Below, piece after piece: positions 1 to 13,007 of a stretch of DNA of 13,007 nt. This DNA comes from a virus. Its lineage: Duplodnaviria; Heunggongvirae; Uroviricota; Caudoviricetes. The stretch is from positions 1 to 13,007 of the IMG/VR virus record IMGVR_UViG_3300029162_000078; one strand, given 5' to 3'. A program made the position numbers and the translations under genes. Numbering within the stretch: position 1 is the first letter of the stretch; each line of letters opens with the position of its first letter. The notes below the pieces were generated by a model that worked only from the letters and a program-made list of their open reading frames with translations, did not search any database and was not told the origin of the DNA.

Positions 1-1254
1 ATGCTGGAACAAATGGGCATTGCCGCGAAGCAAGCCTCGTATAAATTAGCGCAACTCTCCAGCCGCGAAAAAAATCGCGTGCTGGAAAAAATCGCCGATG
101 AACTGGAAGCACAAAGCGAAATCATCCTCAACGCTAACGCCCAGGATGTTGCTGACGCGCGAGCCAATGGCCTTAGCGAAGCGATGCTTGACCGTCTGGC
201 ACTGACGCCCGCACGGCTGAAAGGCATTGCCGACGATGTACGTCAGGTGTGCAACCTCGCCGATCCGGTGGGGCAGGTAATCGATGGCGGCGTACTGGAC
301 AGCGGCCTGCGTCTTGAGCGTCGTCGCGTACCGCTGGGGGTTATTGGCGTGATTTATGAAGCGCGCCCGAACGTGACGGTTGATGTCGCTTCGCTGTGCC
401 TGAAAACCGGTAATGCGGTGATCCTGCGCGGTGGCAAAGAAACGTGTCGCACTAACGCTGCAACGGTGGCGGTGATTCAGGACGCCCTGAAATCCTGCGG
501 CTTACCGGCGGGTGCCGTGCAGGCGATTGATAATCCTGACCGTGCGCTGGTCAGTGAAATGCTGCGTATGGATAAATACATCGACATGCTGATCCCGCGT
601 GGTGGCGCTGGTTTGCATAAACTGTGCCGTGAACAGTCGACAATCCCGGTGATCACAGGTGGTATAGGCGTATGCCATATTTACGTTGATGAAAGTGTAG
701 AGATCGCTGAAGCATTAAAAGTGATCGTCAACGCGAAAACTCAGCGTCCGAGCACATGTAATACGGTTGAAACGTTGCTGGTGAATAAAAACATCGCCGA
801 TAGCTTCCTGCCCGCATTAAGCAAACAAATGGCGGAAAGCGGCGTGACATTACACGCAGATGCAGCTGCACTGGCGCAGTTGCAGGCAGGCCCTGCGAAG
901 GTGGTTGCTGTTAAAGCCGAAGAGTATGACGATGAGTTTCTGTCATTAGATTTGAACGTCAAAATCGTCAGCGATCTTGACGATGCCATCGCCCATATTC
1001 GTGAACACGGCACACAACACTCCGATGCGATCCTGACCCGCGATATGCGCAACGCCCAGCGTTTTGTTAACGAAGTGGATTCGTCCGCTGTTTACGTTAA
1101 CGCCTCTACGCGTTTTACCGACGGCGGCCAGTTTGGTCTGGGTGCGGAAGTGGCGGTAAGCACACAAAAACTCCACGCGCGTGGCCCAATGGGGCTGGAA
1201 GCACTGACCACTTACAAGTGGATCGGCATTGGTGATTACACCATTCGTGCGTAA
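1..1254 (+). CDS. proA: gamma-glutamyl phosphate reductase (glutamate-5-semialdehyde dehydrogenase), proline biosynthesis
   Basis: 417-aa ORF starting at window position 1 and ending TAA at 1252-1254. The translation is recognisable as full-length enterobacterial ProA (aldehyde-dehydrogenase fold). Followed by tRNA-Thr, as in the E. coli proBA-thrW locus. Confidence 0.93.
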
Positions 1255-1368
1255 ATAAAACCGGGTGATGCAAAAGTAGCCATTTGATTCACAAGGCCAT
1301 TGACGCATCGCCCGGTTAGTTTTAACCTTGTCCACCGTGATTCACGTTCGTGAACATGTCCTTTCAGG

Positions 1369-1444
1369 GCCGATATAGCTCAGTTGGTAGAGCAGCGCAT
1401 TCGTAATGCGAAGGTCGTAGGTTCGACTCCTATTATCGGCACCA
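1369..1444 (+). tRNA. thrW: tRNA-Thr (anticodon CGU)
   Basis: 76-nt sequence GCCGATATAGCTCAGTTGGTAGAGCAGCGCATTCGTAATGCGAAGGTCGTAGGTTCGACTCCTATTATCGGCACCA folds as a cloverleaf by hand: 7-bp acceptor stem, D-arm GCTC/GAGC, anticodon loop TTCGTAA (anticodon CGT), T-arm GTAGG/CCTAT, encoded CCA end. Confidence 0.93.
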
Positions 1445-1445
1445 T
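1399..1445 (+). repeat. attL: 47-bp direct repeat (3' end of thrW), left prophage junction
   Basis: Positions 1399-1445 are identical to 11853-11899, with mismatches immediately outside both ends (1398 c vs 11852 a; 1446 t vs 11900 c). The repeat covers the 3' part of the tRNA, typical of tRNA-targeting tyrosine integrases. Confidence 0.8.
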
Positions 1446-1458
1446 TAAAATCAATAAG

Positions 1459-2622
1459 TTACACATCATTAGTACCTTCCTTATTTTTTGACTGGGACAA
1501 ATTTGGGACCGATGGGTTCAGGATCGAGTCTATTTGCCGTGCGTGTTCGGTAAGGTGATTAGGTGCAAGGTGAGCATATCGACGAACCATTTCGATAGAC
1601 TCCCAGCCTCCCATTTCCTGTAACACTGACAACGGGACTCCGGCTTGAACCAGCCAACTTGCCCAGGTGTGTCTCAAGTCGTGAAATCTGAAATCATCAA
1701 TACCAGCCCGTCTCAGCGCCGCTTTCCAGGCTGTGTTTGCGTCATACCGCATCTTCCTTACTGTTGGCGCTTTCGTTCCGTCTGGTTTGGTACAGCTTTC
1801 CTTGTACACAAATACCCAACGGTGATGATTCCCGATTTGTTTTTTCAATACGCGACATGCAGTATCATTCAGCGCAACGCCAATTGCGCGGTTTGATTTA
1901 CTCTCTTCCGGGTTTATCCATGCCACCCGGCGCTGCATATCTATTTGTTGCCATTCAAGGTTGATGATGTTCGAGCGTCTTAAGCCTGTTGCCAGTGCAA
2001 ATTCAACAACAGACTTTAATGGCTCCGGACATTCATCAATCAGCCTTTGTGCTTCATGGGGCTCCAGCCAGCGGATCCGTTTATTCTTTGGTTGAGGCAC
2101 TTTAATAATTGGTGCCTTATCCAGCATTTTCCATTCACGCTCTGCGGCTCTTAGTAGGGCCTTTATAAATGAAAGATGCGTAGCCTTCGTTGCAACGGAC
2201 GCTGGTTTTGGCGTGTATTCTGGAACAGGTTTCCCTTTTTTTCTGCATGCTTCTGCCCTGAGTTTCCAGTTTTCCTCATGACGCCGGTTCGTCATTTTCT
2301 GCATTGCTGAATAAATTTTTGATTCAGTAATGTCTCTTAGTTGCATTCCTGCGAAATGTTGAAGCCAGAATCCGATCCGGCTTTTGTCATCGTCCAGCGA
2401 TTTTTTATGTGCTTTCTCTTCAAGCCACCTGACACACGCTTCCTCGAACGTTATATCAGGTATTTCACCAAGTTTGCTGACCCGCCATGCTTCAGCCTTT
2501 AGCTTGTCATGGAGTTCTGTCGCCTGCCTTTTGTCCTTTGTTCCAAGAGACTGTTTAAATCTTTTACCGTTCGGCAATGTGAAACTGGCGTACCATATTT
2601 CACCTCTGCGGAAGAGTGACAT
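1459..2622 (-). CDS. int: Tyrosine-type site-specific integrase, phage P22 Int-like
   Basis: 387-aa ORF. N-terminus [41 protein letters not shown] and C-terminal catalytic region (...[39 protein letters not shown]) match the P22-type integrase family as I recall it. Adjacent to the thrW att site. Confidence 0.9.
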
Positions 2623-2849
2623 TTTCTTTCCTCTGTTATGCCATCACCCGCGCTCACCTGGACAGTATGCAGCGGAGACTGAAGAGCCGCAATGCAGGCT
2701 TGTCGTGTTGTGAGGTAAGGAGATTTATTCTTAGTGGGATCTTTGCGTGTTGCCTGAAGACGCCCTGTGCGTATCCAGTTAATGGCAGTCGGTCTGGATA
2801 TCTTGAGAAAATGACAGGCCTCATCGAGTGTGAGGCTGTATGGCTCCAT
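2499..2849 (-). CDS. xis: Excisionase, P22 Xis-like (116 aa)
   Basis: Within ORF 2499..2933 the protein most plausibly starts at [31 protein letters not shown] (ATG at 2849..2847, overlapping the upstream gene's TAA as TAATG). 116 aa, and its 3' end overlaps the int start by 124 nt. The sequence resembles P22 Xis as I recall it. Confidence 0.75.
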
Positions 2850-3154
2850 TATTTCACCTCTTGTTGTGACATTGTTGAAAAATGGATACCTGCTCGTTGC
2901 TGCCAGACGATCCAACCGAGAGTCATATCCCATGCCATGTATTCGTTATCGCCGTTTTTTGCTCTCCGACGATCTACTAAGTCACCGAAACGCTTTTCCA
3001 TGAATAATTCATAAGCTTCGCGTTCATCTGGTTCTACTTCCAGAGATAGGAGTGCGATTTCATAAGCACGGCGCTCAATATCGTCTCGCACGTCAAGGCT
3101 GCTGATACGCTCTTTAATTTCTTTAATCAGTTCTTTGTCGGTAAAAGTGGTCAT
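2849..3154 (-). CDS. Hypothetical small phage early-region protein (101 aa)
   Basis: ORF MTTFTDKELIKEIKERISSLDVRDDIERRAYEIALLSLEVEPDEREAY... with GGAGG about 10 nt upstream of the ATG at 3154. Start overlaps the upstream gene's stop and its stop overlaps the xis start (TAATG), consistent with an operon. No recognisable domain. Confidence 0.5.
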   Translation of the reverse strand: MTTFTDKELIKEIKERISSLDVRDDIERRAYEIALLSLEVEPDEREAYELFMEKRFGDLVDRRRAKNGDNEYMAWDMTLGWIVWQQRAGIHFSTMSQQEVK

Positions 3155-3516
3155 TATGCTCCAGCCTCCGGTGCTTTTGGCATTACTGCCCAGTGAGTGA
3201 TATTGACGTTTTCAAGGTCCCCGACCTGAAATGTCCACTGCCATTCTCCGGTTTCTTTTTGTCCCCAGGTGTACCAGAGAGAACGCCAGCCAATTAGCCA
3301 GCCTTCTCCGTTAGCATCGAATAACAAAACACTTTCATTTGCTGGTGGCAGTTCAGTTGACACTGGTATTACTTTGTTTTCCTGTGCTGCACATTTAGCT
3401 TCAAGCGCATCGAATTTACGCACCAGGTATTCAGCATCTGTTTCATTCACTTTCAGATCTCGCGGTACACATCTCCCACGAAGAAACCCTTCCATTTCGA
3501 AAACATTCATGCGCAT
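3154..3516 (-). CDS. DUF551-like phage protein (120 aa)
   Basis: ORF with GGAG 8 nt upstream of the ATG at 3516. C-terminal region ...KVIPVSTELPP...GWLIGWRSLWYTWGQ...NITHWAVMPKAPE resembles the Trp-rich DUF551 signature common in lambdoid/P22-like early regions (motif recollection, not a search). Confidence 0.55.
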   Translation of the reverse strand: MRMNVFEMEGFLRGRCVPRDLKVNETDAEYLVRKFDALEAKCAAQENKVIPVSTELPPANESVLLFDANGEGWLIGWRSLWYTWGQKETGEWQWTFQVGDLENVNITHWAVMPKAPEAGA

Positions 3517-4073
3517 TTGCGTAACTCCGATAACTCGTTAAAACGTTCCATAAACATCCCGTAGGCATGGCCCGGTGCCTGTGGAATCACTTTGAACATC
3601 TCTGTTGCCGGGATACCTTCCAGTACAGGCCAGAAAGAGCCATCATCAAGCCCGAGATCGCGGCGTTCGGTTGCCAGCATAATGAGATCGGCATATTTCA
3701 CTGGCGTGCTCATAACAGGAGGTAACCCGTATTTCTCACGTATTACGGCGTCTATTTTTTCTTCCATCCGTTTATAGTCAGGAAGAAGTCGTTTCAGTGG
3801 TGCGGGGATGTCCTGGCAATATGCTTCTGTTGCATCATGCATTAAAGCTTCAAAAGCAAATTCCTGTGGCACCAGCTGGCTGCAAAGCACCGCATGTTGG
3901 GCGACACTGTAGAAGTGTGAAAGATGTCCTGCAAAGCGACAGATATTTGAAAGGGAAATGCCAGCATAATGCTGGGGTATGTTTCTGATGCGATGAAAGT
4001 GGTGGATTCTGCCGTATCGGATGCCGCCAGGCTGTTGCAGGGGGATATCTCGGTACTTCTGCCGCCGCCATCG
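3507..4073 (-). CDS. HD-superfamily phosphohydrolase, YfbR/YfdR-like 5'-deoxynucleotidase; no canonical start in frame (probable 5'-damaged or truncated gene)
   Basis: The track ORF 3507..3890 begins at a GTG, but the same frame is open upstream to a TGA at 4074-4076. That upstream stretch reads ...GIRYGRIHHFHRIRNIPQHYAGISLSNICRFAGHLSHFYSVAQHAVLCSQLVPQEFAFEALMHDATEAYCQDIPAPLK..., giving the H...HD metal-binding pattern of YfbR-type nucleotidases. There is no ATG/GTG/TTG between the stop and the first His motif. Confidence 0.55.
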   Translation of the reverse strand, partial: RWRRQKYRDIPLQQPGGIRYGRIHHFHRIRNIPQHYAGISLSNICRFAGHLSHFYSVAQHAVLCSQLVPQEFAFEALMHDATEAYCQDIPAPLKRLLPDYKRMEEKIDAVIREKYGLPPVMSTPVKYADLIMLATERRDLGLDDGSFWPVLEGIPATEMFKVIPQAPGHAYGMFMERFNELSELRKCA

Positions 4074-4778
4074 TCAGGCAAAAATTTCGTTGAGCAGGTG
4101 CAGAAAATGTGGCGTACCGGGAAACGCCTTTATGGTAACGCCAGCGACCTGGTCACCATGATCAAAACGCTTTCCGGTGTCAGCCTCGGCAGTGATCTGC
4201 AACCGCGCGGCGTCTGGAAAACGGACAGTAAAACCACCGCTACGGCGACGCAGCAGCGTAACGTGGTTGCCAGCACCCTTCGTACGACCGCAATCAGCGA
4301 AGCGGCGTATGCCGTCACCCGATTGCCTGCGCCAACAACTTCCGCGGTGATGCAGAATGCCGCAGTGGGGCAGGCAACAACAGCTGCACAGAGCACCGGC
4401 TGGCCTTCCGTCACGCATCCGGCACTGAACAATGCACCGGCGGTGAAAAACACGGTTGACCTGCCGACGTGGGAAGAACTGACTGACATTCGCGACACAC
4501 TGAATACGGCAATTGATAAGGAGTTGTCCCGTACAACCAGTGATGCGCTGTTTCTGGCGCTGCGCCGGGTGAAAGCAGATCTGAATGCGGATATCAACAC
4601 GCGCCTTGAACAGTCTGCACGGATCATTCAGCGCACACCGGATGAGGTTTTACCCGCGCTGGTGCTGGCGGCGACCTGGTTTGATAACGCGGCGCGTGAC
4701 GCGGACATTATTCGGCGTAATGCCATTACGCATCCCGGCTTTGTGCCGGTGATCCCTCTGAAGGTGCCAGTGCAATGA
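3969..4778 (+). CDS. Mu gp43 (N)-like DNA circulation protein, C-terminal fragment (N-terminal half missing)
   Basis: 269-aa ORF (frame open from 3951) whose stop overlaps the start of the next baseplate gene (ATGA at 4775-4778). Position and context match the gene upstream of gp44 in Mu-like tail modules. Far shorter than a full-length protein, and its 5' end runs into the antisense HD gene. Confidence 0.55.
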   Translation: MLGYVSDAMKVVDSAVSDAARLLQGDISVLLPPPSSGKNFVEQVQKMWRTGKRLYGNASDLVTMIKTLSGVSLGSDLQPRGVWKTDSKTTATATQQRNVVASTLRTTAISEAAYAVTRLPAPTTSAVMQNAAVGQATTAAQSTGWPSVTHPALNNAPAVKNTVDLPTWEELTDIRDTLNTAIDKELSRTTSDALFLALRRVKADLNADINTRLEQSARIIQRTPDEVLPALVLAATWFDNAARDADIIRRNAITHPGFVPVIPLKVPVQ

Positions 4779-5866
4779 ACGACAATGTCACGCTACGGGT
4801 AAATGGCCGGGAGTGGAATGGCTGGACATCGGTGCGCATCGGTGCCGGTATTGAACGGCTGGCGCGGGATTTCAGTGTGGAGATCACCCGCCAGTGGCCG
4901 GGTGATGAGGGTATCACCACGCTTCAGCCGCGCATTAAAAACGGTTCAAAAGTGGAGGTGCTGATTGGTGATGAGCTGGTGATCACCGGCTGGGTGGAGG
5001 CGACGCCCGTTCGTTACGATGCCCGTTCGGTCAGCACCGGTATTGCCGGACGCAGTCTGACCGCTGACCTGATTGACTGTGCAGCCGAACCGACACAGTT
5101 TAACGGACGCTCGCTGGTGCAGATAGCGCAGGCGCTTGCTGCGCCTTTCGGCATTGAGGTGGTGAACAACGGTGCGCCGTCGGGTGTTATTCCTGACGTC
5201 CAGCCCGATCACGGCGAAACGGTGATTGAGGTGATCAACAAAATACTCGGTCAGCAGCAGGCACTGGCTTACGACGACCCGCACGGCAGGCTGGTGATTG
5301 GCGGTATTGGCTCAACGCGGGCACATACCGCGCTGGTACTTGGGGAAAACATCCTTTCCTGTGATACGGAGAAGAGTATCCGGGAGCGGTTTTCAGTTTA
5401 CCAGGTGGCGGGGCAGCGTGCCGGAAACGATGATGATTTCGGTGAGGCCACCACCACCGCGCTGCGGGCCCGCACAGAGGATGCATTTATTGCCCGTTAC
5501 CGTCCGATGTATATCAGGCAGACAGGGCAGGCTACGGGGGCAGGCTGTATTGCCCGTGCGGACTTTGAAGCCCGACAACGGGCGGCGCGGACGGATGAAA
5601 CCACCTATGTGGTGCAGGGCTGGCGACAGGGTAACGGTACGCTGTGGCAGCCCAACCAGCGGGTGATTGTCTTTGATCCGGTCTGTGGTTTCGACAATAC
5701 CGAACTGCTTGTTTCGGAAGTCACGTTTACTCAGGACCAGAACGGCACCCTGACGGAAATCCGTGTCGGCCCACCTGATGCTTATCTGCCTGAACCCGAA
5801 GCCCCGGCGCGCGGAAAAAGAAAAAAGCCAGAGTACAGGAGGACCCGTTCTGATGAGGACGATTGA
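4775..5866 (+). CDS. Baseplate hub protein, Mu gp44 (P)-like / phage late control D family
   Basis: 363-aa ORF, translationally coupled to neighbours. Gene order gp43-gp44-gp45-gp46-gp47-gp48 matches the Mu N-P-Q-V-W-R baseplate cluster. GC-rich with Lys/Arg-rich C-terminus. Confidence 0.75.
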   Translation: MNDNVTLRVNGREWNGWTSVRIGAGIERLARDFSVEITRQWPGDEGITTLQPRIKNGSKVEVLIGDELVITGWVEATPVRYDARSVSTGIAGRSLTADLIDCAAEPTQFNGRSLVQIAQALAAPFGIEVVNNGAPSGVIPDVQPDHGETVIEVINKILGQQQALAYDDPHGRLVIGGIGSTRAHTALVLGENILSCDTEKSIRERFSVYQVAGQRAGNDDDFGEATTTALRARTEDAFIARYRPMYIRQTGQATGAGCIARADFEARQRAARTDETTYVVQGWRQGNGTLWQPNQRVIVFDPVCGFDNTELLVSEVTFTQDQNGTLTEIRVGPPDAYLPEPEAPARGKRKKPEYRRTRSDEDD

Positions 5867-6401
5867 AGCCATGCAGCGACAACTCCTCGGCCTGATTGGG
5901 CGGGCAGTGGTGAAAAGCATCAGTGCCGCCACGAAATGTCAGACCGTGGATGTGTCTCTGATTGCCGGTGAACCCAAAGCCGGGGTTGAACATCTTGAAC
6001 CCTACGGTTTTACCTCAAGGGCAAACAGCGGTGCGGAAGCGGTGGTGTTGTTTCCGGATGGCGACCGTTCTCATGCGGTGGTTGTTACGGTGTCGGACCG
6101 GCGCTACCGCCTGAAAGGGCTGCAGACGGGTGAGGTGGCTGTCTATGACGATCAGGGGCAGTCCGTGACGCTGACCCGGGAGGGGATCGTGGTGGACGGT
6201 GCAGGTAAAACGATCACGTTTCGCAATTCACCTAAAGCACGTTTTGAAATGGACCTGGAAGTGACAGGACAGGTGAAAGACCTGTGCGACTCCGGCGGCA
6301 CCACCATGTCAGCGATGCGGCTTGCCTATAACGGGCATCGTCACAGAGAGAACGGTCAGGGCAGTAACACCGACAAACCTGATAAAGCGATGGAGGCATG
6401 A
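5853..6401 (+). CDS. Baseplate assembly protein V / spike, Mu gp45-like
   Basis: ATG at 5853 preceded by AGGAGG (5837-5842). Protein MRTIEAMQRQLLGLIGRAVVKSISAATKCQTVDVSLIAGEPKAGVEHLEPYGFTS... is typical of gpV-type baseplate spike proteins. The track ORF begins at 5763, but the RBS supports 5853. Confidence 0.75.
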   Translation: MRTIEAMQRQLLGLIGRAVVKSISAATKCQTVDVSLIAGEPKAGVEHLEPYGFTSRANSGAEAVVLFPDGDRSHAVVVTVSDRRYRLKGLQTGEVAVYDDQGQSVTLTREGIVVDGAGKTITFRNSPKARFEMDLEVTGQVKDLCDSGGTTMSAMRLAYNGHRHRENGQGSNTDKPDKAMEA

Positions 6402-6826
6402 TGGAACTGTGGCTGACGGTGAACGGTAAACGCACCTGCGCCAGCGCACCGCTGGATCCGCTGACCCGCGCCGTGGTGATTTCCCTGTTTACCTGGCGGC
6501 GGGCGGAGCCTGATGACAACGCCGACGTCCCGATGGGATGGTGGGGGGATACCTGGCCTGCGGTACAGAATGACCGTTACGGCTCCCGACTGTGGCTGCT
6601 TCAGCGCAGCAAACTGACCAATCAGCTGGTGCAGACGGTAAGGGGGTATATCCGCGAATGCCTGCAATGGATGATTGATGACGGCGTGGTGTCCCGTATT
6701 GATCTGGATATCCGCCGCACCGGGATTAATGAACTGGGTAACAGTATCACTCTCTGGCGTCGTGACGGACCGGTAATGATTTCTTTTGATGATCTGTGGA
6801 GTGCGATAACGCATGGCGGACAGTGA
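6398..6826 (+). CDS. Mu gp46-like baseplate protein (GP46 family)
   Basis: 142-aa ORF. Start ATG overlaps the gp45 stop (ATGA). Size and position match the Mu V / gp46 family. Confidence 0.7.
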   Translation: MMELWLTVNGKRTCASAPLDPLTRAVVISLFTWRRAEPDDNADVPMGWWGDTWPAVQNDRYGSRLWLLQRSKLTNQLVQTVRGYIRECLQWMIDDGVVSRIDLDIRRTGINELGNSITLWRRDGPVMISFDDLWSAITHGGQ

Positions 6827-7871
6827 ATTTCAGCGCCCGACGCTGGCAGAAAATATCAGTATGCTCCGTAACGATTTATTCGCCAGGCTGGACGTCAGCG
6901 ACACGCTCCGGCGCATGGATGAAGACGTGCGGGCAAAGGTGTATGCGGCGGCGCTGCATACGGTTTACGGTTACATCGATTATCTGGCAATGAACATGCT
7001 GCCTGACCTGTGCGATGAGTCCTGGCTGGCGCGACATGCTGCGATGAAACGGTGTCCGCGCAAGGGGGCCACGACTGCCAGCGGGTATATGCGCTGGGAA
7101 GGCGTCAGCGATGGCCTGAAGGTGACCGCCGGGAGTGTTATTCAGCGCGATGACCTGGTTCAGTACACGGCAACTGCCGATGCAACCAGCGCCGGTGGTG
7201 TCCTGCGCGTGCCGATCGCCTGCTCAAGTGCAGGCGCGGTCGGTAACGCTGACGACGGTACGTCATTAATCCTGGTCACGCCGGTTAATGGTCTGCCGTC
7301 TTCCGGCGTGGCAGACACTCTGACAGGTGGATTTGATACTGAAGATCTGGAAACGTGGCGCGCCCGCGTCATTGAGCGGTATTACTGGACTCCTCAGGGC
7401 GGGGCTGACGGGGACTATGTTGTCTGGGCTAAAGAAGTGCCCGGCATTACCCGCGCATGGGCATACCGTCACTGGATGGGAACGGGGACTGTCGGTGTGA
7501 TGATTGCCGGCAGTGACCTGATTAATCCGATTCCGGAAGAATCAACGGAAACGGCGGCAAGACAACATATCGGGCCACTGGCCCCGGTGGCAGGCTCTGA
7601 TTTGTATGTGTTCAGGCCGGTGGCGCATACGGTGGATTTTCATATCCGTGTGACGCCGGATACACCGGAAATACGGGCTGCCATCACCGCGGAGTTGCGT
7701 TCGTTCCTGCTGCGTGATGGTTATCCGCAGGGAGAACTGAAGGTGTCGCGTATCAGTGAAGCGATTTCCGGTGCGAACGGGGAATACAGCCATCAGTTGC
7801 TTGCACCGGCGGAAAATATCTCCATTGCAAAAAATGAACTGGCGGTTCTGGGGACGATTTCATGGACGTGA
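6813..7871 (+). CDS. Baseplate J-like protein, Mu gp47 (W)-like
   Basis: 352-aa ORF overlapping the gp46 3' end. Size and position match baseplate J family proteins of Mu/e14-type modules. Confidence 0.8.
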
Positions 7872-7980
7872 CAAACGATGATTACATCCGCCTGTTGTCG
7901 GCACTGCTGCCGCCCGGTCCGGCGTGGTCAGCCAGCGATCCGGCGATTGCCGGTGCGGCACCGTCATTAACCCGCGTTCA
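7862..7980 (+). pseudogene. Truncated Mu gp48-like tail protein (DUF2313 family), N-terminal stub of about 30-40 codons
   Basis: Start ATG overlaps the gp47 stop. N-terminus [22 protein letters not shown] matches the conserved start of gp48/YmfQ-type proteins. The frame then runs antisense into the 3' end of tfa (stop at 7981-7983 on the minus strand), so the rest of the gene is deleted. Confidence 0.5.
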
Positions 7981-8418
7981 TCAGCGTGCGGATGCCGGAG
8001 GCGTAGGCCATTCAATATCTGGCGTACCGGAAGTATCGACCAGTTCCAGTGCGTCCAGATAATCCAGCCACAAATTATATTGCGCCAGTTCCTCACCTTT
8101 CAGGCGACCAATCGCCGCTTTACCAAGCCATTGCTTTCTGTTTATGTATTCGTTGATCTGATTAATCAATTGCTGCTTTTCCAATTCGGCTGCGGCAATT
8201 TGTTCCTCATGAGTTGGCGGTGGAATATCAATCCATGCAGGCATTCCGTCGATGACACCTCTGTATTTTCCTTCTGGTGCTTCCTTCATAAATTCGGCAG
8301 CAACAGTGTCGTCAATTTCGATTCCATCACCGGGCCATTCGCCGGATTCCTGATAAGCGATTTTAAGCTCCACAGGGAAAAACGCATTTTTATCGGCACT
8401 GAAAATATATTTCTGCAT
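7981..8418 (-). CDS. tfa: Tail fibre assembly protein (Tfa; U'-type copy of an invertible segment)
   Basis: 145-aa ORF with AGGA-type RBS. C-terminus ...[18 protein letters not shown] matches the conserved ...VDTSxxPDIEWP... end of E. coli Tfa proteins. Lies directly downstream of the tail-fibre variable fragment on the same strand. Confidence 0.75.
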
Positions 8419-8420
8419 TT

Positions 8421-8819
8421 CTACCGTCCTATCGAAACATAACTGAATCTGTATTGCTGTGAGATGTCACTGGTTGCCACACGCCACGCTGAATTACTGA
8501 TATGTTCAAAATTTACAGACAAAACCTGCGGGGCAGGACTCGACGGGTCTGACTGAACGGCATCAGACATAACACTGACTGAAACCATCGGCTGATTAGG
8601 GAATGGTATAGGGAAGTGTCCACTGATAAAGCGGGTCGTGTTTCCTGAAAAAGTGCCAAACTGAACAATATATCCACCTGGTAGCCTGAACCATCCCGAA
8701 CCAGAAGCGAATGCTCCCATATCCGGTATCTGATTATCTCCTGTGCCCACATCCCTTTTCGCCGCTTCTCCCAAACCAACGTTTATGAAAATGCAGAAAT
8801 AACGAGCAAATGGCATCAT
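8421..8819 (-). pseudogene. Tail fibre C-terminal variable segment (S'v-type), no functional start; remnant of the invertible segment
   Basis: Open frame ending TAG at 8421-8423, immediately upstream of tfa. The reading frame passes through the crossover site at 8766-8791, where in intact Gin/Pin systems the constant N-terminal tail-fibre part would be joined. No constant-part gene exists in this window. Confidence 0.5.
8766..8791. other. Din-family invertase crossover site (pix/gix/hix-like), right boundary of the former invertible segment
   Basis: TTCTCCCAAACC-AA-CGTTTATGAAAA: 26 bp with imperfect dyad symmetry and the AAACC-NN-GGTTT-like core of hix/gix/cix sites (recalled consensus). Located 55 bp upstream of the pin start, where the invertase-proximal site lies in Mu G, P1 C and e14 P segments. 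Confidence 0.5.
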
Positions 8820-8845
8820 TCCTGCTTTTGTCAGGGAGATCTACC

Positions 8846-9400
8846 ATGCTTATTGGCTATGTACGTGTGTCAACAAATGACCAGAACACAGATCTACAAC
8901 GTAATGCGCTGAACTGTGCAGGATGCGAGCTGATTTTTGAAGACAAGATAAGCGGTACAAAGTCCGAAAGGCCGGGACTGAAAAAACTGCTCAGGACATT
9001 ATCGGCAGGTGACACTCTGGTTGTCTGGAAGCTGGATCGGCTGGGGCGCAGTATGCGGCATCTGGTCATTCTGGTTGAGGAGTTGCGCGAACGTGGCGTT
9101 AATTTTCGCAGCCTGACGGATGCTATTGATACCAGCACACCGATGGGGCGTTTTTTCTTTCATGTGATGGGTGCCCTGGCTGAAATGGAACGAGAACTGA
9201 TTGTTGAACGAACAAAAGCTGGACTGGAAGCTGCTCGCGCACAGGGACGAATTGGTGGACGTCGTCCCAAACTTACACCAGAACAATGGGTGCAGGCCGG
9301 ACGATTAATTGCATCAGGCGTTCCTCGCCAGAAGGTGGCGATCATCTATGATGTTGGTATATCGACACTGTATAAGAAGTTTCCGGTCGGAGATAAATGA
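8846..9400 (+). CDS. pin: Serine recombinase, DNA invertase of the Pin/Gin/Cin/Hin (Din) family
   Basis: ATG at 8846 with AGGGAG RBS gives a 184-aa protein: MLIGYVRVSTNDQNTDLQ... (catalytic Ser in the YVRVST motif), resolvase core, C-terminal HTH (...GVPRQKVAIIYDVGISTLYKKF). The track ORF starts 12 codons upstream at 8810. Confidence 0.9.
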   Translation: MLIGYVRVSTNDQNTDLQRNALNCAGCELIFEDKISGTKSERPGLKKLLRTLSAGDTLVVWKLDRLGRSMRHLVILVEELRERGVNFRSLTDAIDTSTPMGRFFFHVMGALAEMERELIVERTKAGLEAARAQGRIGGRRPKLTPEQWVQAGRLIASGVPRQKVAIIYDVGISTLYKKFPVGDK

Positions 9401-9440
9401 AACCGTAGCACGTCGTATGCAAGAAGATCGTGCTGCGGTT
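9399..9440 (+). repeat. Copy A of a roughly 40-bp imperfect palindromic repeat; probable bidirectional terminator between pin and the GIY-YIG gene
   Basis: GAAACCGTAGCACGTCGTATGCAAGAAGATCGTGCTGCGGTT: arms ACCGTAGCACG / CGTGCTGCGGT (10 of 11 complementary) around a 16-nt loop, followed by TTTATGCTTAT. Sits between two convergent genes. Confidence 0.5.
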
Positions 9441-9460
9441 TATGCTTATCACTTAAAGAC

Positions 9461-10330
<870 letters not shown>

Positions 10331-10420
10331 CTAACCCTTTGAATTTACATAGCGCAAAAAGATACCTTTCCTCATAATGTGAGCTAATTTTATGTTTCGT
10401 TTGATGATCGGGTCGGTCTC

Positions 10421-10460
10421 GAAACCCGTAGCCACGTCATATGCAAGAACGTGCTACGAC
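10421..10460 (+). repeat. Copy B of the roughly 40-bp imperfect palindromic repeat
   Basis: GAAACCCGTAGCCACGTCATATGCAAGAACGTGCTACGAC aligns with copy A over about 80% of positions (GAAACC-GTAGC-ACGTC-TATGCAAGAA-CGTGCT-CG). Same orientation as A, on the other side of the GIY-YIG gene. Confidence 0.5.
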
Positions 10461-10673
10461 TGGCTGGTGAACTTCCGATAGTGCGAGTATTGAATTATTT
10501 CCAACTGTTATCGATTTTGCGTATTTTTTGCATGAGAGGATTTTTACCTCCTCCCACCGATCCTCCATGGCTTTACGCCAGTGTCTCTGGTCTGCTATGT
10601 GCCAGGAGCAGCCATTGCTAAGTCCATCCTGTATTGTGCAGGTCAGCTCGTTTTTAAAGAGTCCGGCCATCAT
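10437..10673 (-). CDS. Hypothetical small protein (78 aa), doubtful
   Basis: ORF MMAGLFKNELTCTIQDGLSNGCSWHIADQRHWRKAMEDRWEEVK... with no convincing Shine-Dalgarno sequence or promoter. Its 3' end overlaps repeat B. Retained only as a possibility. Confidence 0.2.
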   Translation of the reverse strand: MMAGLFKNELTCTIQDGLSNGCSWHIADQRHWRKAMEDRWEEVKILSCKKYAKSITVGNNSILALSEVHQPVVARSCI

Positions 10674-10811
10674 CTTACTGGTACAGACACCATATACTTT
10701 GTGACGGTCAGGCTACATATGCACAACTCAACTTATTCATCTATTTTTTGCTTTAGCATGTCAGTGTTGCTTTCTCGTCGGCGGGTGAGCGGTGACCTGA
10801 CCTGTCGATAA

Positions 10812-10848
10812 AGGAACGTAGCACGTTTTATGCAACACCCGCATGCGG
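10812..10848 (+). repeat. Copy C (more divergent) of the roughly 40-bp repeat
   Basis: GGAACGTAGCACGTTTTATGCAACACCCGCATGCGG shares the GTAGCACGT-NN-TATGCAA core with A and B, same orientation. Lies upstream of the flxA promoter. Confidence 0.4.
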
Positions 10849-10963
10849 CAGAAAATTATTGCCGAACGTTTACCCCTGTCAACAAGCTTTACTTTCTGAG
10901 GCGCGCCAGCCCGCGAGGAAAACAATCTGAACATCAAACAATTAATGACACAAGAAATACGAT

Positions 10964-10990
10964 TAAAGATTTTTTTGTGCATGTCGATAG
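10964..10990 (+). promoter_or_regulatory. Sigma-28 (FliA)-type promoter upstream of flxA
   Basis: TAAAGATT-(11 nt)-GTCGATAG against consensus TAAAGTTT-N11-GCCGATAA, 24 nt upstream of the flxA ATG. AGGAG RBS at about 11003-11007. Confidence 0.6.
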
Positions 10991-11013
10991 TGCTTTTTTA
11001 AAAGGAGAAATCT

Positions 11014-11346
11014 ATGTCTGTCACAATTCAGGGAAATACCTCAACCGTTATTTCAAACAACTCCGCCCCGGAAGGAACATCAGAAATAGCCAAAATCACA
11101 AGACAAATTCAGGTGCTGACTGAAAAGCTTGGGAAAATCTCATCGGAAGAGGGGATGACGACACAGCAGAAAAAAGAAATGGCTGCATTGGTACAGAAGC
11201 AAATTGAAAGCCTCAGGGCTCAACTGGAGCAGTTGTTAAGGCAGCAGGCAGAGAAAAAGAATGAAGACGCGACAGTTCAGCCTGATAAAAAAGAAGAGAA
11301 AAAAGACGATACAAATACCGCTGGCACCATTGATATTTACGTCTAA
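11014..11346 (+). CDS. flxA: FlxA-like protein (sigma-28-regulated prophage gene family)
   Basis: 110-aa ORF MSVTIQGNTSTVISNNSAPEGTSEIAKITRQIQVLTEKLGK... with coiled-coil and Lys/Glu-rich C-terminus, a strong RBS, a class-3 flagellar-type promoter upstream and a terminator downstream. Confidence 0.8.
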   Translation: MSVTIQGNTSTVISNNSAPEGTSEIAKITRQIQVLTEKLGKISSEEGMTTQQKKEMAALVQKQIESLRAQLEQLLRQQAEKKNEDATVQPDKKEEKKDDTNTAGTIDIYV

Positions 11347-11360
11347 GTGACAGCCGTATT

Positions 11361-11383
11361 GTGGCCCTCATCGGGCCACTTTT
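11361..11383 (+). terminator. Rho-independent terminator of flxA
   Basis: GTGGCCC-tcatc-GGGCCAC (perfect 7-bp GC-rich stem, 5-nt loop) followed by TTTT, starting 15 nt after the flxA stop. Confidence 0.6.
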
Positions 11384-11852
11384 CGCCATCAGCCTTTTCT
11401 TTAAAGACATATTATCTTTGTATCATTTCTGATAGTTAACATTACAAGATATAAGTAATGGACGCACTCCCAATTAGTCTATTTAAATCGCCACGAGTTT
11501 AACTGACAACCCATGATCAATTATGAATTGCAACTATTTCTGTAGTCACTTTTGTGGGGACAGTCCACAAAACTGCCAACTTCCGCTTCTTGCTCATAAC
11601 AGACATAAACTTCAGTTATGGCATAAAGGTATGCATGCTGGGTGGGGAAAGTATGAAGGAAAAGAAGACTGCTGCGCCGTTTGTCGTCACGTTTATCTTC
11701 ATTGGCTATGCAAGTCGTAATACAAGGTGGGACAAAACTGAGACACATAAGGCCTCGCAATGGCTTGCAAGGCTTTACATGTTTTGATGTGGTGGGACGT
11801 GTGAGCGCAGTGTTGATGGGGTAATGCTTTGAATTAGAAGTGGATTCTTATA

Positions 11853-11899
11853 ATTCGTAATGCGAAGGTCGTAGGTTCGACTCCTATTATCGGCACCAT
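11853..11899 (+). repeat. attR: 47-bp direct repeat duplicating the 3' end of thrW; right prophage junction
   Basis: Identical to 1399-1445. A partial tRNA-Thr 3' fragment without the 5' half of the tRNA. The right boundary of the island lies here. Confidence 0.8.
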
Positions 11900-12362
11900 C
11901 TTTTCTCGTAAAATCATCAAGTTACTATTGCAGTATTTTGCTTTGTTCAACACTAATGTGCAATTTTGCGCGTTGTAGGTGTGGCAAAATTGTGGCAAAG
12001 CTAATTGGTCAGCATTTGCATCATTACGCTAAACAAACTACTTCCTTATAAACGTAATGTGTTGACCTTATCGATGCGTTGCATGAAAGACAGTTTAGTG
12101 ATGAAAAATCTTATAAATTAACAGCTTAAATACATTATCCGATAGAGCTAAGTGCCAGAAAGGGACACTCAGGTTACATAACAATGAGTGATACAGTTCA
12201 CGTAGTGAAGGTACTATGCCTAGGTGTTTGATTACACTTTGATCATTGATGATACGCTCATGAAGGTATTACTTTCCTGTAATGAGCAGGTAGGTAACGA
12301 TGTCGAACTAAATGAATTTATAGTAAACTTTGCAACAAGAGAACAAGGGAGTATGAGGGGTT

Positions 12363-13007
12363 ATGGCTACTGCAGAGCAGATCAAAGCTTTATTGAAAAG
12401 CCACGTTGATCGTGATGATCAGCGTTTCTTTTCTATTGCTTTGCAGGTGGCAGCTAAGGAAGCAAGGCAAGGTCATCATAAGCTTGCTAATGATATAAAA
12501 AACTTAGTTGATAAAAATCAGAAAACAACGAGTTCTGTAGGTTTAGTTGAAAAACGACTTACACCATTTGTTAAGCAGCCTGATGGTGATCTTAAGGGGT
12601 TACTTGAGCAAACGAACAAGCCAGTACATCTTCAAGATCTGGTGATTTCTGGAAGCGTTAGGGAAAGATTGAATCAGGTTCTGCTTGAACAAAAACAGAA
12701 AGATAAACTTTCTGAGTTTGGGCTTATTCCAAGAAGAAAAATTCTTTTCACTGGTCCTCCCGGTACTGGTAAGACAATGTCCGCATCAGTCATTGCTACA
12801 GAGTTAAAGCTACCACTTTATACAGTCGTCTTAGATAATCTAATCACTCGCTATATGGGTGAAACTGCAGCTAAGCTGCGTTTAATTTTTGACCACATAC
12901 GGCAAACAAGAGCTGTATATTTTTTTGACGAGTTCGATGCTATAGGAACTCAGCGTGGCGCTCAGAATGACGTTGGAGAAATTCGGGTAATGACTCCAAC
13001 TTATTGA
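12363..13007 (+). CDS. Classic-clade AAA+ ATPase with N-terminal helical domain; ORF ends about 30 codons after Walker B (truncated, frameshifted, or cut by the window)
   Basis: Walker A ILFTGPPGTGKT, then YMGETAAKLRLIF and Walker B AVYFFDEFDAIG with the following TQRG motif. The ORF stops (TGA 13005-13007) before the expected NQLL...DG sensor region. The +2 frame over the last about 20 nt reads ...NDSNLL, which resembles that expected continuation. Preceded by about 460 bp of AT-rich non-coding DNA. Confidence 0.7.
   Translation: MATAEQIKALLKSHVDRDDQRFFSIALQVAAKEARQGHHKLANDIKNLVDKNQKTTSSVGLVEKRLTPFVKQPDGDLKGLLEQTNKPVHLQDLVISGSVRERLNQVLLEQKQKDKLSEFGLIPRRKILFTGPPGTGKTMSASVIATELKLPLYTVVLDNLITRYMGETAAKLRLIFDHIRQTRAVYFFDEFDAIGTQRGAQNDVGEIRVMTPTY

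What the first reader, a model, noticed from the sequence alone, without database searches (positions are those of the whole stretch)
1399..11899. Mosaic, heavily deleted prophage of about 10.4 kb bounded by 47-bp att repeats at thrW
Seen in sequence: a perfect 47-bp direct repeat (1399-1445 and 11853-11899) with the integrase next to the tRNA. Established knowledge: P22-type integrases target the 3' end of thrW. Inference: the element joins a P22-like int-xis-early arm to a Mu/e14-like baseplate and invertase module and an AT-rich cargo arm, and lacks head, replication and lysis genes. It is therefore a cryptic remnant that retains int, xis and both att sites and could in principle still excise.
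Basis: partly seen in the sequence, partly recalled or inferred. Interest (0 to 1): 0.45.

Follow-up and report, generated by a model that had tools for sequence, protein, structure and literature searches.

The report
Deleted SfV-type prophage remnant at thrW
This is an ordinary cryptic prophage: about 10.5 kb left from a 39-kb SfV-family phage integrated in the thrW tRNA gene of E. coli, which lost 73% of its genome in two internal deletions but keeps its integrase, excisionase, both attachment sites and a known anti-phage defence gene (PD-T4-3).

Summary
A perfect 47-bp direct repeat (1399-1445, 11853-11899) is the 3' end of an intact tRNA-Thr(CGT), with a tyrosine integrase beside it.

The element is not a new chimera. 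It is colinear with SfV-family phages (P22-type int/xis, lambdoid early genes, HK97-type head, Mu-type tail). An intact 38.8-kb relative with the same right arm sits at thrW in E. coli JE86-ST05.

Two microhomology deletions explain the structure:
- Junction 1 (3954-3958, about 26.5 kb) fuses 5'-truncated yfdR/orf30 to a 5'-truncated DNA-circulation gene.
- Junction 2 (7993-7996, about 1.8 kb) removes the tail-fibre constant part and one Pin crossover site.

The AT-rich "cargo arm" encodes PD-T4-3 (a validated GIY-YIG defence gene) and a FlxA-like protein. The right flank is another island, an IetAS defence system cut by IS1.

The predicted empty site exists at 100% identity in 15 complete E. 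coli genomes. It also occurs in one gut-metagenome contig carrying the same ietA::IS1 marker.

Int is 98% and Xis 97% identical to the SfV proteins, but the early promoters and regulators are gone. Autonomous excision is therefore possible but unproven.

This is a routine cryptic prophage of low novelty.

The parts
1..1254 (+). proA 3' part (left chromosomal flank, not part of the element)
   Evidence: ORF. Annotated proA in all matching E. coli genomes, and 100% identical to K-12 KLY and FAM21845.
1369..1444 (+). thrW, intact tRNA-Thr(CGT). Its 3' 46 nt are supplied by the attL core.
   Evidence: ARAGORN; Rfam tRNA, 71.8 bits.
1399..1445 (+). attL core (47 bp)
   Evidence: Perfect repeat. Identical to the attP core of SfV (L001 11419-11465).
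1459..2622 (-). int, tyrosine integrase, 387 aa, full length
   Evidence: Pfam Phage_integrase, E 3e-48. 381/387 identical to SfV Int. The exact sequence occurs on >=1000 contigs.
2499..2933 (-). xis, excisionase (HTH_17), full length
   Evidence: Pfam HTH_17. 140/144 identical to SfV Xis.
2849..3154 (-). SfV orf28 / yfdT-like early gene, function unknown
   Evidence: Colinear with SfV orf28; phrog_660.
3154..3516 (-). SfV orf29 / yfdS-like early gene (DUF551)
   Evidence: Pfam DUF551; phrog_583, full length.
3507..3958 (-). 5'-truncated SfV orf30 / yfdR (5'-deoxynucleotidase). Its start codon and about 28 codons are lost.
   Evidence: The alignment to SfV stops at L001 13978, inside orf30 (13527-14063). 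phrog_318 matches only its C-terminal part.
3954..3958 (.). Deletion junction 1 (about 26.5 kb lost: early-left remainder, immunity, replication, Q, lysis, terminase, head, sheath, tube, tape measure). Imperfect 5-bp microhomology GGgAA/GGtAA.
   Evidence: The two alignments to SfV, JE86 and TUM10008 overlap at 3954-3958. Base-level view. Size taken from the JE86-ST05 coordinates.
3959..4778 (+). 5'-truncated Mu N-like DNA-circulation / baseplate-hub gene (SfV orf15), lacking about 173 codons
   Evidence: phrog_184 matches profile positions 176-408 of 411 only.
4775..5866 (+). Mu P-like baseplate protein (SfV orf16). A 1-nt deletion in the C-run at 5802-5805 frameshifts the last ~17 codons.
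   Evidence: Pfam GpP-like and Gp44-like domains. The frameshift shows against L007.
5853..6401 (+). Mu gp45-like baseplate assembly protein V (SfV orf17)
   Evidence: Pfam Phage_Mu_Gp45; gene call in the identical contig L006.
6401..6826 (+). Mu gp46-like protein (SfV orf18)
   Evidence: Pfam GP46.
6813..7871 (+). Baseplate J / Mu gp47-like protein (SfV orf19)
   Evidence: Pfam Baseplate_J, E 2e-52.
7862..7996 (+). 3'-truncated Mu gp48 / YmfQ baseplate wedge gene (SfV orf20)
   Evidence: The alignment to relatives ends at 7996. phrog_203 matches the N-terminal 45 aa only.
7993..7996 (.). Deletion junction 2 (about 1.8 kb lost: ymfQ 3' end, tail-fibre constant part, left Pin crossover site, one Sv/tfa pair). 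4-bp microhomology TGCC.
7981..8418 (-). Tail-fibre assembly gene (tfa) of the former invertible segment. Its last codons are replaced at junction 2.
   Evidence: Pfam Caudo_TAP in L006; phrog_188.
8421..8816 (-). Promoterless alternative tail-fibre C-terminal segment (gp53-like C domain)
   Evidence: Pfam Gp53-like_C; phrog_1396.
8766..8789 (+). The only remaining Pin crossover site, so the switch is locked
   Evidence: The intact relative has an inverted pair at L004 17520-17543 / 19366-19389. The window has a single match even allowing 3 mismatches.
8846..9400 (+). pin, serine DNA invertase, 184 aa, full length
   Evidence: Pfam Resolvase + HTH_7; annotated pinE in relatives.
9461..10234 (-). 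PD-T4-3, single-gene GIY-YIG anti-phage defence, 257 aa, full length
   Evidence: PADLOC PD-T4-3, E 2.6e-140, profile positions 1-255 of 256. Pfam LEM-3_GIY-YIG.
11014..11346 (+). FlxA-like protein gene (cargo, function unknown)
   Evidence: Pfam FlxA; phrog_11044, full length.
11728..11852 (+). P arm of attR (phage side)
   Evidence: 95.9% identical, without gaps, to the SfV attP left arm.
11853..11899 (+). attR core (47 bp)
12363..13007 (+). Right flank, not part of the element: ietA of an IetAS defence island, cut at codon 214 by IS1 (IS1 terminal repeat at 12986-13007)
   Evidence: PADLOC IetA, E 2e-50, profile positions 1-200 of 330. Intact IetA-IetS in FAM21845. The alignment to the intact gene ends at 12985, and IS1 follows in L006.

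Best explanation
An SfV-family temperate myovirus of about 39 kb integrated by Int-mediated site-specific recombination into the 3' end of thrW. This family has a P22-type Int/Xis, lambdoid early region, HK97-type head and Mu-type contractile tail. In its E. coli members a Pin-invertible tail-fibre segment and a cargo slot sit next to attP. In this host thrW was already followed by an IetAS-carrying island. Integration duplicated the 47-bp core and regenerated the tRNA. Two illegitimate, microhomology-mediated deletions then removed about 73% of the prophage. Delta-1 took everything from inside yfdR/orf30 to inside the DNA-circulation gene. Delta-2 took the 3' end of ymfQ, the tail-fibre constant part and one Pin crossover site. 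What remains is a non-inducible, non-packageable remnant. It has full-length int and xis, both att sites, four complete or nearly complete baseplate genes beginning to decay (one frameshift), a locked orphan pin, and an autonomous cargo gene, PD-T4-3, that probably still protects the host against T-even phages. Shown here: the repeat, the gene content, colinearity with intact relatives, the two junctions and the empty-site alleles. Inferred: the order of events, PD-T4-3 activity and any excision.
For: Repeat, tRNA and int. Colinearity: 1399-3958 is 98.5% identical to SfV int-xis-orf28-30, and 3954-7996 is 97.8% identical to SfV orf15'-orf20'. 8765-11899 is 98.2% identical to the right arm of the intact thrW prophage of JE86-ST05, and 99.9% from 9400. 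The left arm is 99.1% identical to JE86 and 99.5% to TUM10008. The intact relative measures 38,819 bp from attL to attR, with all modules in the same order. Junction sequences show microhomology. Other E. coli strains carry different deletion derivatives of the same family at thrW: TUM10008, LR-33 and O157:H7 DEC4E, which I take to be the Sp1/CP-933H remnant. The same two junctions occur in independent assemblies. The junction-1 product is indexed in 49 blocks of the collection, and junction 2 is seen in L006-L009 and partly in L010. Precise absence is documented three ways. The synthetic empty site is 100% identical over 647 bp in 15 complete genomes. The FAM21845 flanks are 100% identical over 1,445 and 1,133 bp. 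Contig L023 is 100% identical over 1,234 bp and runs into the same IS1. Int and Xis match SfV at 98% and 97%. PD-T4-3 is assigned and was validated experimentally in PMC9519451 and PMC12409345.
Against: No direct undeleted ancestor with identical sequence was found. The best intact relative differs by 1-2% in the tail genes and has a different tail-fibre variable segment, so the size of Delta-2 (about 1.8 kb) and the orientation of the ancestral invertible segment are inferred. TUM10008 shows that stepwise deletion is an alternative route to junction 1. The host strain is not identified: no complete RefSeq E. coli genome carries this derivative, and one exact protein is labelled E. coli in NCBI. 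Function of int, xis, pin and PD-T4-3 in this element is untested.
Confidence: 0.9

Rival explanations
1. De novo chimera: the element was assembled in this chromosome by recombination between unrelated elements (a P22-like prophage, a Mu-like prophage, e14 and an AT-rich island).
For: The modules resemble P22 (int 81% nt identity), Mu (Pfam Mu Gp45, GP46 and GpP) and e14 (annotation names ymfQ, pinE, tfaE). GC content differs between modules, from 0.43 to 0.58.
Against: The same modules occur in the same order in functional phages (SfV, SfI, SfII, SfIV) and in an intact prophage at the same site. Both novel joints are simple deletions relative to those genomes.
Confidence: 0.04
2. Domesticated defence cassette: the remnant persists because selection keeps PD-T4-3, while the rest of the prophage erodes. 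This is compatible with the main explanation and adds a reason for persistence.
For: PD-T4-3 is full length and 100% identical to the gene of strain C7, whereas gene P in the same element carries a frameshift. The independent deletion derivatives at thrW in TUM10008 and O157 DEC4E keep pin (partial in DEC4E) and a full-length PD-T4-3. PD-T4-3 is present in 822 of 5,426 complete E. coli genomes and is active in a native host (PMC12409345). A strong promoter-like site lies upstream (10882-10855, 11 of 12 matches).
Against: In LR-33 the gene is split by IS3. Retention of att-proximal DNA could simply reflect where deletions happen to fall. No selection test was done. The four baseplate genes are also complete or nearly complete, which suggests a young deletion rather than long-term selection.
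Confidence: 0.3
3. Locked fossil: despite full-length int, xis and att sites, the element no longer excises on its own, and the empty sites are simply never-occupied alleles.
For: pL, N, cI, cII and all other regulators are deleted. No sigma-70-like site is found on the minus strand between 1400 and 4300. The O157 Sakai remnant Sp1, scored int+ and xis+, gave no circularisation (PMC2669165). Native empty thrW is common, in 948 of 5,426 genomes.
Against: The empty-site contig L023 carries the same ietA::IS1 marker as the occupied contigs. This is compatible with precise excision, but also with integration after the IS1 event. Many cryptic prophages excise at low frequency, and Int and Xis could be supplied in trans by any of the common phages with this int type (1,043 of 5,426 genomes).
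Confidence: 0.5
4. Phage satellite or other autonomous mobile island that exploits a helper phage.
For: Small size (10.5 kb), its own int and xis, and a tRNA site.
Against: There is no replication, regulatory, packaging-redirection or cos function. Its genes are truncated fragments of structural genes, and its borders inside the element are deletion scars.
Confidence: 0.02
5. Assembly artefact (collapsed or chimeric contig).
For: None specific.
Against: Independent assemblies from different samples and assemblers carry the same junctions: L009 is identical and L007 is 99.92% identical. L006 is identical throughout and may be the window's own source.
Confidence: 0.01

Closest known systems
Shigella flexneri serotype-converting myoviruses SfV, SfI, SfII and SfIV
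   Same: Identical 47-bp att core in thrW. Int is 98% and Xis 97% identical in amino acids. orf28-30 and the Mu-like baseplate genes orf15-20 are 98% identical in nucleotides and in the same order. The literature reports a 46-bp attP and thrW integration (PMC3851460).
   Different: The cargo slot next to attP holds PD-T4-3 and flxA-like instead of gtrA-gtrB-gtr(type). A Pin invertase and an invertible tail-fibre segment are present, which SfV lacks. About 73% of the genome is deleted.
Intact SfV-like prophage at thrW of E. coli JE86-ST05 (NZ_AP022815.1, 297,050-335,869)
   Same: Same site, same int arm (99.1%) and same right arm of pinE, PD-T4-3, hypothetical gene, flxA and attR (99.9% from 9400).
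   Different: It is complete at 38.8 kb. Its right flank is the native 'lysR-paoD chromosome rather than the IetAS island.
Sp1 / CP-933H of E. coli O157:H7 and other thrW remnants (TUM10008, LR-33)
   Same: Degraded prophages at thrW with the same int type and, in O157 DEC4E, TUM10008 and LR-33, a pin-PD-T4-3 right arm. Sp1 is described as a highly degraded lambdoid prophage (PMC2669165).
   Different: Their deletion end points differ and they carry IS insertions and other cargo (AraC; a restriction-modification pair plus AbiTii). That the DEC4E locus is Sp1 rests on my recall of its position at thrW and was not checked against the Sakai record.
PD-T4-3 (Vassallo et al. 2022)
   Same: Full-length match to the PADLOC model (E 2.6e-140) with a GIY-YIG domain.
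   Different: Nothing detectable at sequence level. Activity here is untested.
Gin/Cin/Pin/Hin invertible tail-fibre switches (Mu G, P1 C, e14 P segments)
   Same: Full-length serine invertase next to a crossover site and inverted tfa / fibre C-terminal genes.
   Different: The second crossover site and the fibre constant part are deleted, so no inversion in cis is possible.

Membership tests
tRNA-integrated prophage (tyrosine-integrase att system) | Direct repeat identical to the 3' end of the target tRNA at both ends | tested here: met
   Perfect 47 bp, of which 46 nt are the thrW 3' end.
tRNA-integrated prophage (tyrosine-integrase att system) | Tyrosine recombinase gene next to one att site | tested here: met
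   Phage_integrase domain, E 3e-48, 14 bp from attL.
tRNA-integrated prophage (tyrosine-integrase att system) | Precise empty-site alleles in related genomes | tested here: met
   The synthetic attB is 100% identical in 15 genomes. The native empty site occurs in 948 of 5,426 genomes. Contig L023 is empty in the same IS1-marked background.
tRNA-integrated prophage (tyrosine-integrase att system) | Excision and circularisation activity | not testable with these tools
   This needs junction PCR or reads from a clonal culture. The analogous remnant Sp1 was negative (PMC2669165).
SfV-family temperate myoviruses | SfV-type Int/Xis and att core | tested here: met
   Int 98% and Xis 97% amino-acid identity; identical core.
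SfV-family temperate myoviruses | Mu-like baseplate gene block orf15-orf20 in SfV order | tested here: met
   97.8% nucleotide identity over 4,044 bp, truncated at both ends.
SfV-family temperate myoviruses | HK97-type head, lysis, replication and immunity modules (complete virus) | tested here: not met
   Absent, removed by junction 1. The element is therefore a remnant of a family member and not a functional member.
Serotype-converting phages | gtrA-gtrB-gtr(type) or oac next to attP | tested here: not met
   The slot holds PD-T4-3, a hypothetical gene and flxA-like.
PD-T4-3 defence system | Single full-length protein matching the PD-T4-3 model, with a GIY-YIG nuclease domain | tested here: met
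   PADLOC E 2.6e-140, profile positions 1-255 of 256; Pfam LEM-3_GIY-YIG.
PD-T4-3 defence system | Protection against T-even phages | not testable with these tools
   Shown for homologues in PMC9519451 and PMC12409345.
Invertible tail-fibre switch (Pin/Gin family) | Serine invertase with resolvase and HTH_7 domains | tested here: met
Invertible tail-fibre switch (Pin/Gin family) | Two inverted crossover sites flanking the segment | tested here: not met
   One site only, at 8766-8789. The intact relative has the pair.
Phage satellites (P4-like, PICI) | Own replication, regulation and helper-exploitation genes | tested here: not met
   None found with Pfam, PHROGs or PADLOC.
IetAS defence system (right flank) | IetA ATPase plus IetS S8 peptidase | tested here: not met
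   Only IetA residues 1-214 remain before IS1. The intact pair is present in FAM21845.

The most novel reading that the evidence does not exclude
SfV-family prophages at thrW erode repeatedly and independently (this element, O157 Sp1, TUM10008) down to remnants that keep int-xis-att together with the pin-proximal PD-T4-3 gene. The slot that holds the O-antigen gtr operon in the Shigella phages would then act in E. coli as a defence-gene hotspot. Selection on that slot would turn dead prophages into excisable, trans-mobilisable defence cassettes.
Probability: 0.25. Interest if true: 0.35.

Novelty: new member of a known kind. Interest (0 to 1): 0.2.

Why it matters
It matters little on its own, because cryptic prophages at tRNA genes are commonplace. 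The case has three modest uses.

- It is a clean, base-resolved example of how a 39-kb phage becomes a 10-kb remnant through two microhomology deletions.
- It shows that the att-proximal slot used for O-antigen conversion genes in Shigella phages carries anti-phage defence genes (PD-T4-3, restriction-modification, AbiTii, HNH) in the E. coli relatives.
- It shows thrW acting as a tandem landing pad where a prophage remnant and an IetAS island sit side by side.

For annotation, it warns against reading module joints in remnants as recombination between unrelated phages.

Tried and rejected
- **Source in complete genomes.** I looked for the window in complete RefSeq E. coli genomes. None covers 80% or more of it.
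- **Junction scan.** One exact protein is labelled E. coli.
- **Shigella origin.** I considered Shigella because of the SfV match and the IS1 / allH adjacency. I could not confirm or exclude it.
- **Frameshifted ymfQ.** I first read 7862-8442 as a frameshifted ymfQ. I rejected this because 7981-8418 on the minus strand is a tfa gene and the ymfQ homology ends at 7996.
- **Isolated phage with this right arm.** No phage record carries the whole pin, PD-T4-3 and flxA arm. Only fragments match.
- **Promoter for xis/int.** None was found with the consensus scan. That scan is crude, so the negative is weak.
- **Other RNA genes.** Rfam found only the tRNA.
- **Order of IS1 insertion and integration.** I could not decide whether IS1 inserted before or after the prophage arrived. 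All occupied contigs seen carry the truncated ietA, so L023 does not prove excision.
- **Failed call.** One literature query failed on syntax and was repeated.

Full report
**Observation**

The window holds a perfect 47-bp direct repeat at 1399-1445 and 11853-11899, with a spacing of 10,454 bp. About 4e-21 such repeats are expected by chance in 13 kb. ARAGORN and Rfam both find an intact tRNA-Thr(CGT) at 1369-1444. The repeat is therefore the last 46 nt of thrW plus one base. proA ends at 1254. A 387-aa tyrosine integrase lies 14 bp to the right of attL on the minus strand.

**What the element is**

Megablast against phage records gives SfV as the best hit, with 64% of the element covered at 98%. 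SfI, SfIV and SfII follow. Alignments to SfV (L001) and to three E. coli loci resolve the window into colinear blocks:

- 1399-3958 corresponds to the SfV att core, int, xis, orf28, orf29 and orf30' (98.5%).
- 3954-7996 corresponds to SfV 'orf15 through orf20', the Mu N, P, gp45, gp46, gp47 and gp48 homologues (97.8%).
- 7997-8845 is a tfa gene and a fibre C-terminal segment on the minus strand.
- 8765-11899 matches the right arm of a prophage in E. coli JE86-ST05 at 98.2%, and at 99.9% from 9400.

That JE86-ST05 prophage sits at thrW and measures 38,819 bp from attL to attR. Its gene order is int, xis, yfdT/S/R/Q/P, repressor, replication, Q, lysis, terminase, HK97-type head, sheath, tube, tape measure, DNA-circulation, baseplate, ymfQ, invertible fibre segment, pinE, GIY-YIG gene, hypothetical gene, flxA, attR. 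Domain searches agree with every assignment. They find no head, lysis, replication or immunity gene in the window.

The "mosaic" of P22-like, Mu-like and e14-like modules is therefore the inherited architecture of this phage family. It was not assembled at this locus.

**The two scars**

Junction 1 lies at 3954-3958. On the left, orf30/yfdR has lost its first ~85 nt. On the right, the DNA-circulation gene has lost ~173 codons. The joint falls in an imperfect 5-bp match, GGgAA/GGtAA. Measured on JE86-ST05, about 26.5 kb is missing.

Junction 2 lies at 7993-7996. ymfQ stops after ~45 codons and is joined, through the 4-bp match TGCC, to the 3' end of a minus-strand tfa gene. About 1.8 kb is missing: the rest of ymfQ, the constant part of the fibre gene, one Sv/tfa pair and the left crossover site.

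The intact relative has an inverted pair of crossover sites, at L004 17520-17543 and 19366-19389. The window has a single match at 8766-8784 (full site 8766-8789), even when three mismatches are allowed. The full-length pin gene (8846-9400) therefore has nothing left to invert in cis.

A 1-nt deletion in a C-run at 5802-5805 frameshifts the last ~17 codons of gene P. It is present in the window, L006 and L009, but not in L007, L008 or L010. This is early decay.

**The cargo and the right flank**

The AT-rich arm (GC 0.43) encodes a full-length PD-T4-3 at 9461-10234 on the minus strand (PADLOC E 2.6e-140; Pfam LEM-3-like GIY-YIG). It also encodes a FlxA-like protein at 11014-11346. PD-T4-3 is a single-gene defence found by functional selection (PMC9519451). 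It restricts T-even phages, including in its native host (PMC12409345). The gene is present in 822 of 5,426 complete E. coli genomes.

In relatives the same slot, between pin and attR, varies:

- TUM10008 has PD-T4-3 plus a cytosine methyltransferase, a type II endonuclease, DUF6650 and AbiTii.
- O128:H27 90-9281, O157 DEC4E and C7 have PD-T4-3 plus an AraC regulator.
- VTB97584v has PD-T4-3 plus an HNH protein.
- SfV has gtrV-gtrB-gtrA.

To the right of attR the sequence is not the native chromosome. It is the edge of another island encoding IetA. Here IetA is cut after 214 codons by IS1, whose terminal repeat occupies 12986-13007. FAM21845 has the intact IetA-IetS pair, followed by HigA and traJ/trbJ/trbL genes.

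**Presence and absence**

- The native empty site (proA, thrW, 'lysR, paoD) exists, for example in L011. It is found in 948 of 5,426 complete genomes.
- thrW followed directly by this int-xis pair is found in 1,043 genomes.
- A synthetic query joining window 1200-1445 to 11900-12300 is matched contiguously in 15 complete genomes, nine at 100% and six at 99.8%.
- The FAM21845 flanks are 100% identical to the window over 1,445 bp and 1,133 bp, with the element exactly absent.
- A 1,338-bp human-gut metagenome contig (L023, assembled at k = 127) is 100% identical to the predicted empty site over 1,234 bp. It continues into the same IS1 at the same position.

The element is thus a precise insertion/absence polymorphism, even within the ietA::IS1-marked background.

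L023 does not prove excision. The phage may have integrated after the IS1 event, and recombination between strains could also give this pattern.

**The same derivative elsewhere**

The truncated 269-aa junction-1 product is indexed in 49 blocks of the collection. L006 and L009 are 100% identical to the window, and L007 is 99.92% identical. No complete RefSeq E. coli genome carries this derivative. A species-representative scan for junction 1 found nothing.

**Can it excise?**

In favour:
- Int is 381/387 and Xis 140/144 identical to the proteins of the viable phage SfV.
- The cores are perfect, and the P arm aligns to SfV without gaps.
- Phages with the same int type are common and could supply both proteins in trans.

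Against:
- pL and all regulators are deleted.
- No sigma-70-like site is detected upstream of xis/int on the minus strand.
- The comparable O157 Sakai remnant Sp1, scored int+ and xis+, gave no circular form in experiments (PMC2669165).
- An excised circle would have no cos site or replication functions, so excision would simply cure the cell.

I put autonomous, detectable excision at roughly even odds. Excision with Int and Xis supplied in trans seems likely.

**Comparison with known elements and verdict**

The element works like, and descends from, an SfV-family prophage. It fails the tests for a complete virus and for a serotype-converting phage. It is not a satellite. Its Pin switch is incomplete.

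- The module mosaic is ancestral.
- There are two deletions.
- The cargo is a known defence gene.
- The right neighbour is a second island.

The finding is real and ordinary. It is a new, undescribed deletion derivative of a well-known kind, of low interest. It has some modest value as an example of defence-gene retention in eroding prophages and of tandem occupation of thrW.

Noticed in passing
window 12986-13007; L006 19033-20810; L018 10639-17560: The last 22 bases of the window are an IS1 terminal repeat that cuts ietA at codon 214. In the identical metagenome contig, IS1 is followed by allH and ABC-transporter genes. This implies an IS1-mediated deletion or inversion that removed the rest of the IetAS island and much neighbouring chromosome.
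   Followed up: partly
window 11900-12985; L014 9247-18647; L003 1-2549: thrW is occupied in tandem. An IetAS / HigA / traJ-trbJ-trbL island with its own integrase lies to the right of the prophage here. In TUM10008 an island ending in VbhA and an integrase lies to the left of the prophage, next to a second thrW-derived copy that PGAP annotates as a 112-nt 'tRNA-Ser'.
   Followed up: partly
window 1446-1462 and 11909-11924; L011 5446-5462: A motif AAAATCAnnAAGTTAC follows the 47-bp core in native attB (taaaatcaaagagttac) and in the phage P' arm (taaaatcaataagttac). It also follows the core at the IetAS-island edge (aaaatcatcaagttac), shifted by 9 nt. The attP/attB similarity thus extends to about 64 bp with 2 mismatches, and the neighbouring island may have used a related site.
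   Followed up: no
L021 1-1500 (Logan SRR19362248): Another sample has the same ietA::IS1 gene preceded by a different element (a PRiA4_ORF3-domain gene). That element is joined through only a degenerate ~17-nt piece of the thrW core (CCTATTATCG-CACCAT).
   Followed up: no
window 5802-5805: A 1-nt deletion in a C-run frameshifts the last ~17 codons of the Mu P-like baseplate gene. It is polymorphic among otherwise near-identical contigs: present in L006 and L009, absent in L007, L008 and L010.
   Followed up: yes
window 10855-10882 (minus strand): A near-consensus sigma-70-like site (TTGACA, 16-nt spacer, AATAAT; 11 of 12 matches) points towards PD-T4-3, about 620 nt upstream of its start. A 78-aa minus-strand ORF (10437-10673, weak DUF771 hit) lies between them and is not annotated in relatives.
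   Followed up: no
window 3961-3975: A perfect palindrome, CCAGCATAATGCTGG, lies immediately right of junction 1. It is also present in the intact relatives JE86-ST05 and C7, so the deletion did not create it. Whether it favoured the break is unknown.
   Followed up: partly
L016 12437-17047 (E. coli C7): A related Mu-tailed prophage integrated at argW through IntS carries the same PD-T4-3 gene (100% identical in nucleotides) plus an acyltransferase and an AraC regulator. The PD-T4-3 cargo thus travels with the tail module independently of the integrase type.
   Followed up: no
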